In this document: positions 36,001-54,000 of the stretch, piece after piece
Numbering within the stretch: position 1 is the first letter of the stretch
How the letters are laid out: every line of letters begins with the position of its first letter
Program-made: the position numbers
Source of the DNA: Nitrospirota bacterium
GTDB taxonomy: Bacteria; Nitrospirota; Nitrospiria; Nitrospirales; Nitrospiraceae
NCBI GenBank assembly: GCA_963701855.1
Contig: CAVPBK010000004.1
Coordinates: 288,001 to 352,000 of the forward strand
Direction of reading: 5' to 3'
Length of the DNA stretch: 64,000 nucleotides

Positions 36001-39000
36001 TGTCTTCGTAGTCCTCTTCGTCGGCAGCAGCAAAGAGGGCGGACAGTTCGACCAGACGCAGACGCTTCTGCTTCCATCTCAGCGAGGAGTTCAGGGAACT
36101 GGCTCTGAAGAATGTCGTCGTCGGGAATCAGCTCAGGTCCCCAGCCGCTGAAGGCGATGGATTTGAACTCCGGCTTGAATAACTCAAAGTAGCTGGCCAG
36201 CGCGCCACGAATCTGATGCTCAGTCAGGAGGGTCTGTTTGCCAAACGTGGCTGCGATACTGACCAACAGTTGACGGCGGAGTTCATAGACATTGCCTCGC
36301 TTGCCGTTCTTCGGTGCGAGGGCTTCGATGAGCGGGAGGTGCTCTTTCCACCACAACTCCAATTTCTCTACGAAACCGGCATGGGCCTTGGCGACCCCAG
36401 GATCGCTCTTGACCAGTTCCGCGAGGGCACGGCGCTCAGTCACGACAGGCGCAAAGTCCGAGTACGTGTTGTCCTTGCTTCGTTGCACGAACACGCGTTC
36501 GCGCAAGCCTGCATAGTTTTTCCAAAAGTGGTTTAGTGAGTCGATCTCCACCACTGGCACGCCGCCGTGCAAATGGGCGCGCACGTCGTGCGGCTCAGGC
36601 GGAGGGGCATTGTCCACATAGCGCCGGATATTGCAGTTATAGTCTTCGGCAGCTATCTCACTCACTGGTACTAGTCTGGCGTAGCCCTCGACGTTCTTCC
36701 GCTCACGATAAGCATGGATGATTTTCGAGATGTCCTCCGGGCGGAGGAAGTTTTGTGCCTTTCCCTCGCGGTATTCCCGGTCGGCGTTGATGAAGAAGAC
36801 ATGCTTTCGTGCGGCTGCATCCTTTTTGTTCATCACCAACACACAGGCCGGAATGCCCGTGCCATAGAACAGTCCGGCGGGCAGGCCGATGACCGCATCC
36901 AGCCAGCCACGCTCAATGAAATGTTTGCGCGCTTCTCGTTCCTCGCCGCCCCGAAACAGCACACCGTGAGGCATGATGGTGGCCATCTTTCCGTCGGCCT
37001 TGAGCACGGCCAGCATGTGCTGGACGAACATGAGATCGGCTTTCTTCCCCTTCTCCGGCATCCACACGGCAAAACGGCCTGGATATTCGATGTCCTTCTT
37101 GATGTAGTTCTGGCTGAATGGCGGATTGGCGAGGACTCGGTCGTAGCGTTTGAGTTCGTTGCTCTCGGCCTTATGTTGAGGTCGGCGGATGGTATCCTCC
37201 TGGCGAATATCGGCGTCGGAAATCCCATGGAGGAGCATGTTCATTTTGCAGATGGACCAGGTGGTGCCGATACTCTCCTGACCAAAGAACGACACATCCT
37301 TGGGGTTCCCACCGCACTCACGGATATAATCGCGCGTCTGAATCAGCATGCCGCCTGAGCCGCAAGTGGGATCGTAGATGCTCATGTGCGGCTGAGGATC
37401 GACGATTTCCACAAGTGTGCGCACCACATCCGCCGGCGTGTAGAACTCGCCCGCTTTCTTGCCTGCTGAGTCGGCAAAGAATTTGATGAGGTATTCGTAC
37501 GCCGCCCCCAACAGATCGGGAAACTCAAAATTCTCATCCCGCAGCGGAATCTTCTCGAAATTCTGCACGAAGTTGGCGAGCGTGTCGTCGTCGAGCGTGC
37601 GCTGCCCGATCTTGCGGTTGAAGTTGATATGTTTGAGCACATCTTGCAGCGCATCGACATTGGCATCTTCAAGCGCTTCGAGCGCTTTGTTGAGGCCGCT
37701 TCCGACATTGGTCTTGAGATGGCGGATTTTCGACCAGTGCGCCCTCTCAGGGACGAAGAAGGTGTATTTGTCGGGGTTGGCAAGTTGAGCAGCAATCTGC
37801 TTTTCAGACATCCCTCTCGTCTTGAGGTCTTTGGCAAGCTGCTCACGCTCCTGATCGAAGAGATCGCTCATCCGTTTCAGGAAGAGCATGCCGAAGATGT
37901 ATTCTTTATATTCAGACGCATCCATGTTCCCGCGCAAATCGTCGCACGCGCGGAACAGGAGACCAGAGAGCTGGCTGAGGGTGAGTTTGCTCATACCACG
38001 AGACCTTACTTGCGCCTAGGGACAATGAAAGCGATTGCGGCTTGCTCGGGGCACTGTTTGGAGGGCAAGAATACCCTTTCCACCCTAGGATTGCATCTTG
38101 CCTAGAAAGGAAGCACAGCTCGTGGCACGAAATCTGCGCCCTGGTTTGCGGTTCAAAAAGAGACTTGCTATAGTGCGCGGCGGAGGTGGCCGTGGGCGTG
38201 GCGCCGGATTATATTTTGGTGGAGGGACAGACGTTCAGCAAGGCGAAGCTGTCGCTCGACAACCACGTCTACAAGAACTGTGCGATCGATGACTGCGACA
38301 TCTATTTTAGCGGTGGGCAATACGAGTTGCTCGACACCCACATTACGAATTCACGCCTCATCCTCAACCACCCGGCCAAGGGCATGTACAACGCCGTTCA
38401 GATCTTCAAGATGAAGTCTCCAGGCTCCAGCATCATCTGCGAATAGTAGCTATTAAAAAGCCTGCAGATTCGCTCTCGCATCGTTCAGACTCTCAACGTA
38501 CCGCAAGGGTACGACTCGAGCCTTCACTCGCTGCGGCCTCGGTGAACAGGCTTTTTGAACACCCTTCACAAAGCGTATCTCGCGAACAACGGGATGCGAG
38601 CGACGCTACTTCGTGACCGAGATATTCTCCACGTACTTGACGATCTCGATCGGCTGGAAGACCGGGTCTTGCGATCCTTTGGAGGACTCGGCTTCGACAC
38701 GCTGTAGGAATGGGGCAGGGCCGGTGATCGGCGCATAGTTGAGGATCAACTCAATATCGAATGTCTTGGTATCTTTCGGCGTGGGGAAGGTAAAGGTCTC
38801 GACCCGCAGTTCTTCCGGCTTAAGAACCGTATCCTCAAGAACCTTGACCGCTTCAAAGTCGAAGCTCGTTTTCTGGCCCTTGGCATCCTGATAGACTCGC
38901 CCATAGACCCGCTTGTCGGTAAAGACGGTCTTCAGATTCTTTCCCTTGATATCCAGATCCAGCACCACCGTCGCCCAGGCCGGATGTGTGGCGGGCAAAT

Positions 39001-51000: not shown

Positions 51001-54000
51001 CCGTTCACCACCGATGCCGTCGAGCGCCTTGTCCAAGGCATCAAGTGCCGCCCGCCCATCCTCGACGAACTCTCCGCATTGCAGGTAATCGTGAAATTCG
51101 TCGTCTTCCGGATAAAGCTGGCTCCAGGAGACAAGGAGATAGAGCTTACTGCGGTTGAGGGCACGTTCGACTGCGGGTGAATCCTTGATGGCCATCGAAG
51201 CTGGAATGACCCCGGCCACGGCTTGAGAATTTGTTTGCACCGGCTGTTTGCTCGTCATGCGAGTCGGCTCCTCGCTTGACCCTTTTGCCCACAGAAATTT
51301 TTCGAGCCTAAGAGGTCAAGATTTTGGCACAAAACATTCGTATGGTAGGTATCGGACGTGAGGTTGTCAAGCACGATCTTTTCTTTCGAAGAATATATTC
51401 TAAACATTTGATTTGTCAGATTATTCCTTTCGCGATACCCAGAATTTTCTGAACTTCATTTTTGCCTTCAGGCCTGCGCTTGTGGATTACGAAAGCGGCT
51501 GTGCCAATAATCTATAGGGCGTGACTCGAATAGCCACCCGATCATTCACTGTCCGGCACACTTGTTCGCACAGCCCACAGCCGACGCAACGTTCAGCCGC
51601 CACCACAAGCCGCTGCGTGCCAAAATCCATCGAGAGGGCATCCGTGGGACATTTCGACGCGCAGGCATGGCACCCCTGCCCCGCCGTGCAGACTCGGTGC
51701 GAGACAGACGCGAGACCCATTCGTATCTGCCCGCGCCCTTCGATAGGAAGCAACGCCTCGGTGGCACAGGCCGCAATGCAGGGCACATCCTCGCAGAGAT
51801 AGCACGGCGTGTGATCCGCAAAAATCACCGGCGTCCCGTTCTGCGGATGAAACGTAATCGACCCGTATGGACAGACCTTGCCACAATCGCCGCATTGGGT
51901 GCATCGCTCTAAAAACAACGTCTCCTCGACAGCGCCTGGAGGACGCAACCAATCCGTCCGCACTGGCGGTGGAGCCGGTTGGTCCGGCGGGGCATGTTGA
52001 TGCTTGGAAAATTCTTGCGCCGCTTTGGCAACGGAAACGACAGAGTCCTTGAGGAAATCGCGGCGTCCATATGTCGGATCGGTGGCCACAATCATACACC
52101 ATTACACGACGCCGTCGGCACGCAGCTTGTAGACCTCGACACAGCGGTCGCAGGCCCCAAATTCGATATCCCAGCCAGGGTGATTCTCGCGGATGAAATC
52201 GAGCACATAGGGCTCGAGTTTGTTGCCCATATCCTCAATCCACGAATAGGTCGGAAACCGGCACAGGGGGCAGGGAAATCCCGGCATCAACATGATTTTA
52301 TTTTCTGTTTCCGGAACCTCGCCTCCCTCGACATCTACGGCACGGTCCATCACTCGCAAGGTGTCCGACGCCATTTCGATCAATTCCGAGTGGGTAAAGA
52401 AACTCGTCTGCCACAACCCCTCAAACACCGACTTTAATTGTGGCGCGGGAATCTTGCGGTACCAGGAACGAAACTCTTTGAACCGGTCTTCTTTCCTGAG
52501 CATCGGCTCTTTGCCTGCAACAGCCAGCCGGCTGTCCACAGTGAGGCTCCACAAGACTCGATAGCGTTGAAGAATGAGAGTTTCCTCGCCGGGATTTTGC
52601 CCGACCTTGGTATCGGGATCGTACCCAAAGACCGGATCCAGCATATCCGAGATATGCAACAACTCATGGCGGCAATAGCGTGTAAGGGCAGGATCGTAGA
52701 ATCGCCGTGGTATGAGCTTGATCCCGACGCCTCTCAACCCCTTTTCCTCGAACTCGCGAGCCAGCTCGTGCTCGACGGATCCCCACTTCCTGAGAATATC
52801 GACGCCCTCCTGATCTTCCTTGAGCACCCCCTTGACGAGCACAATGCCGACTCGTTCTTTGAGCAATGGATATTCGTTGAAAGCATCGCGGATGATATCG
52901 GAAAACCCCCAGGTCCCGAACATGTACTGGTAGAGCTTCTTAAACTCACTCTCACGATCATCGAGCGTAAACTTCTCGTAGATCGGGTCGGCGAGTTCAT
53001 GGAACTCTTTATAATAGGTGGGGTCGCCTTCCCGCTCCGTTTTTTCGACGAACGAGTCGATGACCTCTTGCAGCAATGCGGGCTGAAAACGAAGTTCCAT
53101 AACAATCCTTTGGGCGCACGCTAGCAAGCTGCGGAAAACCTCGGTTTATACCCAATACTCTGTTGGAATCTTGAAGATGGTGACGATGTCACAATAGCCA
53201 CAGGATGCTCAAAATGGCCAAACTTCTCACCCGCCCAACCCTGGCGCGCCAAGACGCGCTCCGTCCCAAGCAAGGCCGCAGCGAGCGAAGAGGCGAGGCA
53301 TACGCTTCGGTACGTTGAGCCTCTGAGCGACGCGAGAACGCCGCTGGCGGACATTTTCAGCATCCTGCTAGGAGGCTGCCTTGACTTGATGACAAAGCTT
53401 CTCTTACGATCACCCCACGCTGAGCGGAATTATACTGGCGCGAATAGACGGTTTGCAATCAAGCCGCGCCACTCTGTTCTAGTCGTAAGGATTATTGAAC
53501 ATGGCCGATCACACTATTTCCCAACTCGCCCCTACTCCCCCCCCACTCATACCATCACCGCCGGGAGCGGGCGCCGCACCAGTCGATTTTCTCGAGTATT
53601 GGAAGACAGGGGCGCGGGAACTGACCACGTATCGCGGCCATTCACATGGGGTCTGGTCGGTGGCCTTCACACCAGACGGGTTAACCCTTGCCAGCGGGGG
53701 AGCCGACCGGCTTGTCCGCCTATGGGATATTGAAACCGGACGCCTCCTGCGCTCACTCAGGGGGCATACGGCGGACATCCGATCCATTGTCTTCACGCCA
53801 GACGGCCAAACGTTGGCCACTGCCAGCGAGGATCGGACCATCCGGCTGTGGAATCCGACCACCGGCGAATCGAAGAAGCTTCTCTTCACACGTTATGACC
53901 ACAACGTCGTCAGCCTCTCCCTCTCGCCCGACGGCCTCATGTTGGCGCGAGGCAGCCACAACAAAGACATCAAGATCTGGGAAGTCACCACTGGCACTGA

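What a model noticed while it worked through the whole genome (the two positions that open the first line are those of the whole stretch)
38606..53354. B12-radical-SAM enzyme and private TatA in the NxrC/chaperone cluster of nitrite oxidoreductase
Away from the two nxrAB copies lies a 15-kb one-strand cluster: ferredoxin, NarJ-type chaperone, an NxrC-type haem subunit (EB_dh), then a tight operon of a 593-aa cobalamin-dependent radical-SAM enzyme, a 373-aa unknown, a TPR protein, a TatA, an NHL-repeat protein and a second NxrC-type subunit, followed by two cytochrome c554-like proteins. I read it as the maturation and export line of periplasmic nitrite oxidoreductase, in which the class-B radical-SAM enzyme installs a so far unseen methylation (or other radical modification) on NXR or its cofactor before a dedicated TatA exports the folded complex. 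A radical-SAM step in making the key enzyme of nitrite oxidation has never been propose [...]
Evidence so far: Genes g00897-g00911, all on the minus strand; gaps inside g00905->g00900 are 80, 22, 29, 25 and 95 nt. Pfam: g00905 B12-binding + Radical_SAM (28.8% id to PH0819 methyltransferase), g00906 and g00900 EB_dh (24-28% id to nitrate-reductase haem subunit ORF7), g00908 Nitrate_red_del (perchlorate-reductase chaperone 25.8%), g00909 Fer4 (MauM-like), g00902 TatA_B_E, g00901 NHL, g00897/8 Cytochrome_C554. neighbours.tsv: Radical_SAM with EB_dh in 363 of 511 Nitrospirales (682 genomes in all, of 10,531 with both); EB_dh with TatA_B_E in 333 (403 in all); EB_dh with Nitrate_red_del 397; TatA with TPR 386; TPR with Radical_SAM 392. 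nxrAB: g02263/4 (C6) and g03159/60 (C8), 98.8% identical over 4.9 kb. [...]
(Added by a program. Inside this text positions count along the whole contig: contig position 288,001 is position 1 of the stretch shown here. "Call 12" and the like, gene names such as g00115 and contig names such as C1 are that model's own, and its searches are not shown. The text may have been shortened before it was handed on; [...] marks where a part breaks off. The agent that wrote the report below was given it as the finding of a first reader that could run no searches.)

Follow-up and report, generated by a model that had tools for sequence, protein, structure and literature searches.

The report
B12 radical-SAM enzyme tied to nitrite oxidoreductase
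A vitamin-B12-dependent radical enzyme of unknown job sits in the helper-gene cluster of the enzyme that makes nearly all of Earth's nitrate, and its close relatives occur only in the three bacterial groups that own that enzyme, which suggests an unseen chemical finishing step.

Summary
The same 13-gene order occurs in 9 of 9 other Nitrospirales loci fetched. The cluster, the NxrC candidates and the TorD-like chaperone are already in print (PMC6606698; PMC12342949, which lists the radical-SAM, membrane and NHL genes among 140 genes diagnostic of nitrite oxidation).

- Its orthologues form one clade (support 100) made up only of Nitrospirales, anammox and Nitrospinota sequences.
- In Scalindua-type anammox genomes the gene lies directly after nxrA, followed by a NapG-like ferredoxin, Mrp, MoaA and MoaC.
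- In one Nitrospinota genome it follows nxrABC-TorD-PPIase-MoaA.
- Related enzymes in Methanoperedens lie just after mcrA.

My best reading (0.4) is a cobalamin radical-SAM methyltransferase acting on an NXR polypeptide before Tat export.

Evidence against:
- No modification of NXR is known.
- The Brocadiaceae and Nitrospinaceae orthologues are not next to nxr genes.
- Some Nitrospinota genomes carry the gene without any detectable NXR gene.

The TatA is one of four TatA-family genes in this genome, and nothing shows it is dedicated to NXR.

The parts
58649..61903 (-). Sensor histidine kinase (dCache-HAMP-PAS-HisKA-HATPase, 1084 aa). Upstream end of the conserved block.
   Evidence: Pfam. Syntenic in 7 of 9 Nitrospirales loci. 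PMC12342949 (passage) names 'a regulatory two-component system' in the cluster; that it is this gene pair is my inference.
57210..58652 (-). Sigma-54-dependent response regulator (480 aa).
   Evidence: Pfam. Syntenic in 7 of 9 loci.
53495..54610 (+). WD40 beta-propeller protein (371 aa), on the opposite strand.
   Evidence: Pfam. Present at the same place in 9 of 9 loci.
52102..53100 (-). 332-aa protein with an invariant HExxH motif and a C-terminal CxxC...CxxC motif. Probably the 'putative zinc finger' protein of the NXR module.
   Evidence: No Pfam or NCBIfam family. Motifs invariant in 13 of 13 homologues from three phyla. It lies beside nxrA or TorD in L024, L021, L106 and L109. The model has pLDDT 86.8 and only weak zincin-peptidase matches, Z up to 4.5.
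51487..52095 (-). NapG/MauM/NapF-like ferredoxin with four 4-Cys motifs and an N-terminal RRxF motif.
   Evidence: NapG 105.2 bits, cut-off 269; NapF 63.7, cut-off 102.2. 16 invariant Cys and RR-x-F in 15 of 15 sequences.
50287..51258 (-). TorD/NarJ-type chaperone (323 aa).
   Evidence: Pfam Nitrate_red_del 74.8 bits. TIGR03482 83.8 bits, below its cut-off of 152.3. Equivalent in position to NITMOv2_3625 (PMC6606698).
49077..50027 (-). EB_dh haem-b subunit (316 aa, N-terminal signal or anchor). By size and position, the type of N. moscoviensis NxrC_2, the highly expressed gamma subunit.
   Evidence: Pfam EB_dh 97.8 bits. PMC6606698 Table 2. 75-90% identity in 9 of 9 loci.
49012..49054 (-). Terminator-like hairpin (19-bp stem, 12 GC pairs, T-rich tail) directly after the NxrC stop codon.
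46729..48510 (-). 593-aa cobalamin-binding radical SAM enzyme. The cluster cysteines are C326, C331 and C334, with spacing CX4CX2C.
   Evidence: Orthologues of 68-83% identity in 9 of 9 loci. Orthologue clade.
45527..46648 (-). 373-aa polytopic membrane protein of unknown family.
   Evidence: No family. All named homologues are from Nitrospira or Nitrospirota. The model has pLDDT 69.5 and is helical, with no convincing fold match.
44695..45504 (-). TPR protein (269 aa) without a signal peptide.
   Evidence: 65-86% identity in 9 of 9 loci.
44384..44665 (-). TatA/E-family protein (93 aa).
   Evidence: TIGR01411 65.9 bits, above the cut-off of 53.9. One of 4 TatA/B/E-family genes in the genome.
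43105..44358 (-). NHL-repeat beta-propeller (417 aa) with no recognisable signal peptide.
   Evidence: 69-84% identity in 9 of 9 loci.
42182..43042 (-). Second EB_dh haem-b protein (286-aa ORF). The type of N. moscoviensis NxrC_1, which is weakly expressed.
   Evidence: Pfam EB_dh 105.4 bits. PMC6606698 Table 2.
41396..41881 (-). 161-aa protein with a weak PDZ/HtrA-like stretch.
   Evidence: below cut-offs. Present in 9 of 9 loci.
40092..41399 (-). Multihaem cytochrome c (435 aa).
   Evidence: Present in 9 of 9 loci.
38606..39949 (-). Multihaem cytochrome c (447-aa ORF). Downstream end of the conserved block.
   Evidence: Present in 9 of 9 loci. The HsdM gene beyond it is not conserved there.

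Best explanation
Positions 38606-61903 of the window hold the conserved accessory cluster of the periplasmic nitrite oxidoreductase (NXR) of Nitrospirales.

One transcription unit encodes an HExxH/zinc-ribbon protein, a NapF/G-like Fe-S protein, the TorD-like chaperone and the main haem-b subunit NxrC. It ends at a hairpin. [quoted passage not shown] The PDZ-like gene and the two multihaem cytochrome c genes follow on the same strand.

I read the radical SAM enzyme as a class-B methyltransferase working in the cytoplasm. It would use reductive cleavage of SAM and methylcobalamin to put a methyl group on an unactivated carbon of an NXR polypeptide. The most likely target is NxrA, which carries the Tat signal. 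The step would come before cofactor loading by the chaperone and export through Tat. This would parallel the methylations of methyl-coenzyme M reductase.

Shown here:
- the domains of the enzyme;
- the conserved gene order;
- that the orthologue clade holds only sequences from NXR-bearing lineages;
- direct adjacency to nxrA and to Fe-S and Moco genes in Scalindua-type genomes.

Inferred only:
- methyl transfer;
- a protein substrate and NxrA as the target;
- the ferredoxin as electron donor;
- the TatA as added or dedicated pore capacity for NXR.
For: 1. Domains. B12-binding plus Radical_SAM. The three cluster Cys are invariant in 17 of 17 and 21 of 21 aligned sequences. The best NCBIfam matches are peptide, phosphinate and RiPP methyltransferases: TIGR03975 160 bits, PhpK 127.5, ApyD 122.

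2. Distribution within the phylum. An orthologue of at least 69% identity is in G000 and in 40 of 40 other Nitrospirales sampled. Outside the order, within the phylum, the best match is 28% identical.

3. Nearest relatives elsewhere. Of the best 80 loci among 185,579 species genomes, the 35 with 43-51% identity are all anammox/Planctomycetota-type (11) or Nitrospinota-type (24).

4. Tree of 109 homologues. A 49-row clade with SH-aLRT 100 holds only Nitrospirales (10), Brocadiia (16) and Nitrospinota (23). A second clade of 26 paralogues (support 100) is again made only of sequences from these three groups.

5. Brocadiia class sample of 81 genomes. 38 have both the orthologue and NxrA, 0 have the orthologue alone, 5 have NxrA alone and 38 have neither.

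6. Gene order.
- L024 and L021: NxrC-NxrB-x-TorD-Znf-NxrA-rSAM-ferredoxin-Mrp-MoaA-MoaC.
- NxrA lies directly upstream in 5 of 11 anammox-type loci.
- Ferredoxin-Mrp-MoaA follows downstream in 8 of those 11.
- Nitrospinota genome G203: Znf-NxrA-NxrB-TorD-NxrC-PPIase-MoaA-rSAM.

7. Relatives acting on proteins.
- A Methanoperedens sister group lies 0.8-1.0 kb after mcrA in 5 of 10 loci. The one scanned, L056, has a PqqD-type peptide-binding domain.
- ANME-2d MCR has a 3(S)-methylhistidine whose methylase is unassigned (PMC12413448, passages).
- PqqD domains occur in 6 of 40 of the nearest cluster representatives scanned and in 3 of 4 Dehalococcoidia homologues.

8. Published support.
- Table S12 of PMC12342949 lists the rSAM, its tandem paralogues, the NHL gene and the membrane gene among 140 genes proposed as diagnostic of nitrite oxidation in Nitrospirales.
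- The N. moscoviensis orthologues NITMOv2_3618-3622 are transcribed above the median during nitrite oxidation, at ranks 221-614 by my reading of the table columns.

9. NxrA has a twin-arginine signal.
Against: - No modified residue or cofactor is reported for NXR. However, the only structure I found is at 3.0 A, and its mass spectrometry allowed only carbamidomethyl and Met oxidation (PMC8387239, passages).
- The enzyme scores below the cut-off of every NCBIfam model.
- It lacks the PqqD/RRE domain.
- No conserved small ORF precedes it.
- In Brocadiaceae-type genomes the orthologue lies between argG and a sensor kinase, sigma-54 regulator and HPP gene set, far from nxrA (5 loci).
- In 22 of 23 Nitrospinaceae loci it follows only a small cupin gene.
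- Nitrospinota sample of 101 genomes: 81 have the orthologue but only 44 have NxrA with my query; 40 have the orthologue alone. I checked 5 of these 40. One had nxrA pieces at contig ends and one had only the Znf gene. Three, one of them a single contig, had none of NxrA, NxrB or Znf.
- NxrA was also not found in 9 of 40 Nitrospirales that have the rSAM. Assembly loss of the repeated nxrA is likely but not shown.
- Genomes with more distant NxrA-like genes (41-47% identity) lack the orthologue. NXR-type enzymes therefore do not need it in general.
- The operon is transcribed about 50-fold below nxrC_2.
Confidence: 0.4

Rival explanations
1. The enzyme modifies a cofactor or prosthetic group of NXR rather than a residue. 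Candidates are the molybdopterin, the haem b of NxrC, or their precursors.
For: - In 8 of 11 anammox-type loci the gene is followed by ferredoxin, an Mrp-type Fe-S carrier and MoaA (MoaC follows too in 6 of them). In G203 it directly follows MoaA.
- Class-B radical SAM enzymes act on tetrapyrroles and cofactor precursors as well; BchE and BzaD are among the weaker NCBIfam matches.
- The enzyme has no peptide-binding RRE domain.
Against: - The best-scoring families are peptide or phosphinate methylases.
- The Kuenenia structure models ordinary Mo-bis-MGD and haem b, though at 3.0 A (PMC8387239, passages).
- The Methanoperedens and Dehalococcoidia relatives carry PqqD-type peptide-binding domains.
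Confidence: 0.15
2. The enzyme acts on another protein of the nitrite-oxidation module that is encoded beside it. Candidates are the second NxrC-type protein, the NHL propeller, TatA, or the multihaem cytochromes.
For: - rSAM, the membrane protein, TPR, TatA, NHL and NxrC_1 form one tightly spaced unit (gaps of 22-95 nt), separate from nxrC_2.
- The transcript levels of these genes are similar: 354-719 in the units of the N. moscoviensis tables.
- NHL genes lie beside paralogous rSAM genes in 5 Nitrospinaceae loci (L075, L082, L084, L085, L095).
Against: - The membrane, TPR, TatA and NHL genes were not found beside the orthologue in any anammox or Nitrospinota locus.
- The one Nitrospinaceae NHL protein I read has a signal peptide and is twice as long.
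- Scalindua places the gene after nxrA.
Confidence: 0.15
3. The enzyme makes or alters a small molecule unrelated to NXR, such as a lipid, quinone, cobamide or secondary metabolite. It merely travels with the nitrite-oxidation gene set, which these lineages exchanged by gene transfer.
For: - Contexts free of nxr genes in Brocadiaceae (argG, kinase, regulator, HPP) and Nitrospinaceae (cupin).
- 3 of 5 checked Nitrospinota genomes have the gene but no detectable NxrA, NxrB or Znf.
- Class-B enzymes for hopanoids and ladderane-type lipids score at 90-98 bits.
- A polytopic membrane protein follows the gene in Nitrospirales.
Against: - The orthologue clade and two paralogue clades hold only sequences from NXR-bearing lineages.
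- The gene abuts nxrA and the maturation genes in Scalindua and in G203.
- The gene is listed among those that separate NXR-encoding Nitrospirales from NXR-free genomes in that paper's comparison (PMC12342949).
Confidence: 0.25
4. The adjacency has no functional meaning. The genes lie together only because of conserved order in a slowly rearranging region.
For: The nine Nitrospirales loci are related to each other, so their shared order is not nine independent observations.
Against: - Independent adjacency to nxr genes occurs in two other phyla, each with a different gene order.
- The protein is 68-83% identical across the order.
- The orthologue is expressed.
Confidence: 0.03

Closest known systems
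Conserved Nitrospirales cluster NITMOv2_3614-3631 (PMC12342949) with NxrC_1, NxrC_2 and the TorD-like chaperone (PMC6606698)
   Same: It is the same cluster, in another species. The papers describe NxrC, TorD, 'several proteins of unknown function', two multihaem cytochromes and a two-component system. They report it as conserved, expressed and diagnostic of nitrite oxidation (passages and supplement rows).
   Different: The papers give no function for the radical-SAM, membrane, TPR, TatA or NHL genes. The word 'radical' does not occur in either main text. Links to anammox and Nitrospinota orthologues are not mentioned in the passages I saw.
Cobalamin radical SAM methylases of methyl-coenzyme M reductase (glutamine C-methyltransferase, TIGR04014; Mmp10)
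   Same: These are class-B type radical SAM enzymes that methylate unactivated carbons of a very abundant catabolic metalloenzyme. Their genes often lie near the structural genes. This is what the enzyme here most likely works like.
   Different: It is not a member: TIGR04014 gives 59.4 bits against a cut-off of 360. No NXR modification is known.
RiPP-maturation radical SAM C-methyltransferases (TIGR03975), PhpK P-methyltransferases and ApyD
   Same: These are the best-scoring curated families. They share the layout of an N-terminal domain, a B12 domain and a radical SAM core.
   Different: The scores are 160, 127.5 and 122 bits against cut-offs of 282, 600 and 750. There is no RRE domain and no precursor-peptide ORF.
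NarJ/TorD chaperone plus NapF-type Fe-S protein systems for Tat-exported molybdoenzymes
   Same: The chaperone and the ferredoxin beside NxrC fit this scheme. NxrA has the Tat signal.
   Different: To my knowledge (recalled) those systems contain no radical SAM enzyme, TPR protein, NHL protein or TatA of their own.

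Membership tests
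Class B (cobalamin-dependent) radical SAM enzymes | Cobalamin-binding domain N-terminal to the radical SAM core | tested here: met
   PF02310, 36.7 bits (cut-off 32.1), residues 176-265.
Class B (cobalamin-dependent) radical SAM enzymes | Radical SAM core with a three-cysteine [4Fe-4S] motif | tested here: met
   PF04055, 66.1 bits. C326, C331 and C334 are invariant in 17 of 17 and 21 of 21 sequences. Read from the sequence, the spacing is CX4CX2C, not the canonical CX3CX2C (the canonical spacing is recalled).
Class B (cobalamin-dependent) radical SAM enzymes | Cobalamin- and SAM-dependent methyl transfer | not testable with these tools
   Needs an enzyme assay.
TIGR03975 RiPP maturation radical SAM C-methyltransferase | Score above the curated cut-off | tested here: not met
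   160.3 bits against a cut-off of 281.85.
TIGR03975 RiPP maturation radical SAM C-methyltransferase | Precursor peptide gene or RRE domain nearby | tested here: not met
   No PqqD domain. No conserved small ORF in the upstream spacer of 9 loci.
MCR glutamine C-methyltransferase (TIGR04014) | Score above the curated cut-off | tested here: not met
   59.4 bits against a cut-off of 360.
BchE anaerobic Mg-protoporphyrin cyclase (the name given by one source) | Score above the curated cut-off | tested here: not met
   TIGR02026, 87.7 bits against a cut-off of 481.35. The name appears in JGI rows.
NxrC / type II DMSO-reductase haem-b subunit | EB_dh domain | tested here: met
   PF09459, 105.4 and 97.8 bits (cut-off 33.3). 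TIGR03477 gives 147.3 and 139.1 bits, below its cut-off of 169.85.
NxrC / type II DMSO-reductase haem-b subunit | Physical association with NxrAB | not testable with these tools
   Inferred only, from expression in N. moscoviensis (PMC6606698).
TatA/E | Score above the curated cut-off | tested here: met
   TIGR01411, 65.9 bits (cut-off 53.9).
TatA/E | Dedicated to one substrate ('private') | not testable with these tools
   It is one of 4 TatA/B/E genes and is not next to either of the 2 TatC genes.
NapF / NapG / MauM ferredoxins | Score above the curated cut-offs | tested here: not met
   105.2 bits (cut-off 269), 79.9 (cut-off 178.85) and 63.7 (cut-off 102.2). It has the same four-cluster Cys pattern and RRxF motif.

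The most novel reading that the evidence does not exclude
The nitrite oxidoreductase of Nitrospira, Nitrospina and anammox bacteria carries one or more carbon-methylated residues. They are installed by a small set of paralogous cobalamin radical SAM enzymes: this one plus the tandem pair shared by the same lineages. This would resemble the decorated active site of methyl-coenzyme M reductase. Global nitrate formation would then depend on vitamin B12. The sister enzymes in Methanoperedens would be the missing 3(S)-methylhistidine methylase of MCR.
Probability: 0.3. Interest if true: 0.85.

Novelty: new member of a known kind. Interest (0 to 1): 0.62.

Why it matters
NXR makes almost all nitrate in nature, yet its assembly is poorly understood.

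A cobalamin-dependent radical step in its maturation would have four consequences:
- it would add a post-translational or cofactor modification to a key nitrogen-cycle enzyme;
- it would tie nitrite oxidation and anammox to B12 supply;
- it would name a gene that may be needed to produce active NXR in other hosts (inference);
- it would give a direct, cheap test, namely a search for a +14 Da shift in existing NXR proteomics data.

The family also offers a candidate for an unassigned MCR modification in methane-oxidising archaea.

If the link is only co-inheritance, the finding reduces to one more uncharacterised class-B radical SAM enzyme in an already described cluster.

Tried and rejected
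- **Complex prediction.** Radical SAM enzyme with the NapG-like ferredoxin, both given as alignments: no verdict (score 0.01, mark 0.32). This says nothing either way.
- **Membrane protein fold.** The model has pLDDT 69.5. Foldseek found nothing at E up to 0.001. The best VIA-align match is Z 10.3 to rhodopsin-like helical bundles, which is within the range expected for any helical bundle. The protein atlas returned only its own Nitrospirota cluster.
- **HExxH/zinc-ribbon protein fold.** Only weak matches, Z up to 5.2. Many are to zincin peptidases, but none is convincing.
- **Solved structures related to the radical SAM enzyme.** Only distant class-B enzymes: AprD4 at E 3e-8, plus OxsB and CysS.
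- **Sigma-54 promoter pattern.** 67 matches against 66.7 expected, so no signal.
- **Precursor peptide upstream of the enzyme.** No conserved ORF.
- **Two-component system.** The pair beside the Brocadiaceae orthologue is only 28% and 44% identical to the pair upstream of this cluster. That is family-level likeness, so I rejected it as a specific link.
- **Distant radical SAM homologues in other Nitrospirota (25-28% identity).** They sit in sugar or hydrogenase contexts and are uninformative.
- **Earlier notes of this scan.** Nothing found.
- **The laid genome file.** Not used in any script.

Full report
**Observation**

In the direction of transcription they are:
- a 332-aa protein of no family (52102-53100);
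- a NapG/MauM/NapF-like ferredoxin (51487-52095);
- a TorD/NarJ-type chaperone (50287-51258);
- an EB_dh haem-b protein of 316 aa (49077-50027);
- a 566-nt spacer;
- a 593-aa B12-binding radical SAM protein (46729-48510);
- a 373-aa polytopic membrane protein of no family;
- a TPR protein;
- a TatA;
- an NHL propeller without a signal peptide;
- a second EB_dh protein;
- a 161-aa PDZ-like protein;
- two multihaem cytochromes c.

The genome has two nxrA copies elsewhere. NxrA begins with MFLSRRQFLK, a twin-arginine signal.

**What was already known**

In N. moscoviensis the 34-kDa EB_dh gene next to the TorD-like chaperone is nxrC_2. It is as highly transcribed as nxrAB (20,365 RPKM). The 31-kDa gene seven locus tags away (NITMOv2_3617; nxrC_2 is 3624) is nxrC_1 (354 RPKM) (PMC6606698, Table 2 and text passages).

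The supplementary table of that paper lists the genes between them: NHL-type, tatA, TPR, membrane protein and B12 radical SAM (NITMOv2_3618-3622). Mean values are 719, 617, 539, 414 and 376, with ranks 221-614. This is my reading of the table columns.

A 2025 comparison of Nitrospirales describes the cluster NITMOv2_3614-3631 as conserved and diagnostic of nitrite oxidation (PMC12342949, one passage). File 11 of its supplements, which I take to be its Table S12, lists four relevant entries:
- the radical SAM gene (NIDE3276/NITMOv2_3622);
- two paralogues (NITMOv2_1728/1729);
- the NHL gene;
- the membrane protein gene.

So the cluster is not new. The word 'radical' does not occur in either main text. 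Searches for 'radical SAM' with nxrC/Nitrospira (0 papers) and with nitrite oxidoreductase/nxrA (1 unrelated preprint) found no proposal of such a step. Papers outside the held library were not searched.

**Conservation within the order**

The same 13 genes in the same order were found in 9 of 9 Nitrospirales loci fetched from two families. Identity to the window's proteins is 68-83% for the radical SAM enzyme, 69-84% for NHL and 48-63% for the membrane protein.

The block continues upstream with a WD40 gene (9 of 9 loci) and a sensor kinase plus sigma-54 regulator (7 of 9 loci).

A 19-bp hairpin with a T-rich tail follows the nxrC stop codon. Together with the roughly 50-fold drop in transcripts, this says the radical SAM operon is a separate unit.

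**Distribution of the radical SAM enzyme**

- *Own phylum.* In a sample of 201 genomes, orthologues (at least 69% identity) were in G000 and in 40 of 40 other Nitrospirales. Everywhere else the best match was at most 28% identical.
- *Clustered protein library.* A search of 1.84 billion clustered proteins found a large family: 2,387 hits at E up to 1e-30. The nearest listed full-length representative outside the query's own cluster is 43% identical.
- *Species genomes.* A scan with an alignment of these kept 80 loci. The 35 with 43-51% identity are all anammox-type (11) or Nitrospinota-type (24). Two of these carry other labels (L026, L048) but fall with those groups by context or in the tree. 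Next come Methanoperedens (36-38%) and Dehalococcoidia.
- *Tree.* I built a maximum-likelihood tree of 109 homologues. ORFs under 450 aa, or aligned over fewer than 480 residues, were left out. It has a 49-row clade with support 100 holding only Nitrospirales (10), Brocadiia (16) and Nitrospinota (23). A separate 26-row paralogue clade (support 100) is again composed only of these three groups. The sampling favours the nearest relatives, and the tree came from a quick search.

**Co-occurrence with NxrA**

I used one Scalindua-type NxrA as the query.

| Sample | Both | rSAM only | NxrA only | Neither |
|---|---|---|---|---|
| Class of the anammox genome G201 (81 genomes) | 38 | 0 | 5 | 38 |
| Nitrospinota (101 genomes) | 41 | 40 | 3 | 17 |

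- *Brocadiia.* Three of the five NxrA-only genomes have only a 45-47% identical NxrA-like gene.
- *Nitrospinota.* I checked 5 of the 40 genomes with the rSAM alone. One had nxrA fragments at contig ends, one had only the Znf gene, and three had none of NxrA, NxrB or Znf.
- *Nitrospirales.* NxrA was found in 31 of the 40 genomes that have the enzyme.

nxrA is repeated and often breaks assemblies, so these misses are ambiguous. They still count against a strict link. Related genomes are not independent observations.

Genomes with only distant NxrA-like genes (41-47% identity) lack the orthologue.

**Gene neighbourhoods elsewhere**

- *Scalindua-type loci.* In L021 and L024 the order is NxrC, NxrB, a small protein, TorD-like chaperone, the HExxH protein, NxrA, the radical SAM enzyme, a NapG-like ferredoxin, an Mrp-type Fe-S carrier, MoaA and MoaC, all on one strand. 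In L024 the ferredoxin start abuts the enzyme's stop codon.
- *The 11 anammox-type loci.* NxrA is directly upstream in 5. Two more are cut there, one has 2.3 kb upstream without NxrA, and three show none of these neighbours. Ferredoxin-Mrp-MoaA follows in 8.
- *S. profunda.* The gene between nxrA (scal00863) and the napG-like scal00861 is listed as 'hypothetical protein' scal00862 (PMC3655542, passage and supplement rows). That it is the radical SAM gene is inferred from synteny.
- *Nitrospinota genome G203.* The order is Znf, NxrA, NxrB, TorD, NxrC, PPIase, MoaA, radical SAM.
- *Contexts without nxr genes.* In 5 Brocadiaceae-type loci the orthologue lies between argG and a kinase, regulator and HPP set. 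In 22 of 23 Nitrospinaceae loci it follows only a 105-aa cupin gene.

**What kind of enzyme**

All members scanned score best against RiPP C-methyltransferase, PhpK and ApyD models, always below the cut-offs. None is the MCR glutamine methylase.

In the Methanoperedens group, the one protein I scanned (L056) has a C-terminal PqqD-type domain. The gene lies 0.8-1.0 kb after mcrA in 5 of 10 loci. Three other loci have at least 3 kb upstream without mcrA, and two are too short to tell. [quoted passage not shown] The authors expect a radical mechanism like that of Mmp10 (PMC12413448, passages).

PqqD domains were found in 6 of 40 of the nearest cluster representatives scanned and in 3 of 4 Dehalococcoidia homologues.

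The wider family therefore looks like one of peptide or protein methylases. The NXR-lineage clade lacks that domain and has no precursor ORF. This fits a large protein substrate presented by other factors, but it fits a non-peptide substrate equally well.

**Mechanism proposed**

A cytoplasmic class-B radical SAM methyltransferase modifies an NXR polypeptide, most likely NxrA, before the TorD-like chaperone completes cofactor insertion and the Tat system exports NxrAB.

The NapG/F-like ferredoxin may serve as its reductant or, like NapF, in Fe-S maturation of NxrA. Larger ferredoxins of this family lie beside paralogous rSAM genes in 6 Nitrospinales loci.

The TatA is one of four TatA-family genes. 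It may add pore capacity for a very abundant 180-kDa substrate. All of this paragraph is inference.

The only NXR structure I found is at 3.0 A, with mass spectrometry used for identification only (PMC8387239, passages). It therefore neither supports nor excludes a methyl group.

**Verdict**

The new result is a cross-phylum tie between one radical SAM orthogroup and the Nitrospira-type NXR. The chemistry and the substrate remain open. I put 0.4 on NXR protein modification, 0.15 on a cofactor, 0.15 on another module protein and 0.25 on an unrelated substrate.

Noticed in passing
L056:10001-12172 (also L052, L054, L057, L065): Methanoperedens genomes encode a roughly 720-aa B12 radical SAM enzyme 0.8-1.0 kb downstream of mcrA, in 5 of 10 loci. 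The one scanned (L056) has a C-terminal PqqD/RRE domain. It is not the known glutamine methylase (TIGR04014, 56.9 bits against a cut-off of 360). It is a candidate for the unassigned 3(S)-methylhistidine of the ANME-2d MCR gamma chain (PMC12413448).
   Followed up: partly
window 52102-53100 (-): The NXR-associated 'zinc finger' protein has an invariant HExxH motif plus CxxC...CxxC in 13 of 13 homologues from three phyla. It lies beside nxrA or TorD. Its S. profunda counterpart by synteny, scal00864, is transcript rank 29. It may be a metalloprotease-like maturation factor, but the fold matches are only weak (Z up to 4.5).
   Followed up: partly
L014-L016, L086, L097, L098; not found in G000: Most Nitrospirales carry a tandem pair of paralogous B12 radical SAM genes (33-36% identity to the window's enzyme), followed by a 412-aa unknown protein and a PhzF-like gene. 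This genome shows no such pair, although the four genomes of its genus do.
   Followed up: partly
L077, L087, L091-L093, L099: A Nitrospinales paralogue is flanked by a 440-aa NapG-like ferredoxin and unknown proteins of 164 and 653 aa. In 3 loci it lies a few kb from a TPR protein, an HExxH-protein homologue and TorD or NxrB.
   Followed up: partly
L030-L050, L062, L080: In Nitrospinaceae the orthologue is preceded by a conserved 105-aa cupin gene in 22 of 23 loci.
   Followed up: no
window 46729-48510 (-), residues 326-334: The radical SAM cluster motif reads CX4CX2C in all 21 orthologues and 17 family members aligned, instead of the usual CX3CX2C.
   Followed up: no
window 29084-37994 (-): A type I restriction-modification system (HsdR, HsdS, HsdM) with an AbiEi/AbiEii pair inserted in it borders the conserved cluster. 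HsdM is not conserved at this place in the other 9 loci.
   Followed up: partly
window 55518-56435 (-): A 305-aa ORF of no family lies between the WD40 gene and the regulator. It has no counterpart in the 9 other Nitrospirales loci.
   Followed up: partly
G075, G076, G086, G106, G111, G134, G166, G175, G187: Nine non-Nitrospirales Nitrospirota genomes carry an NxrA-like gene 41-44% identical to the Scalindua-type NxrA but have no orthologue of the radical SAM enzyme.
   Followed up: no
L104:11358-16873: In Brocadiaceae-type genomes the orthologue is followed by a dCache-PAS sensor kinase, a sigma-54 regulator and an HPP-family membrane protein. The architecture is the same as that of the kinase-regulator pair upstream of the Nitrospira cluster, but identity is only 28% and 44%.
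   Followed up: yes
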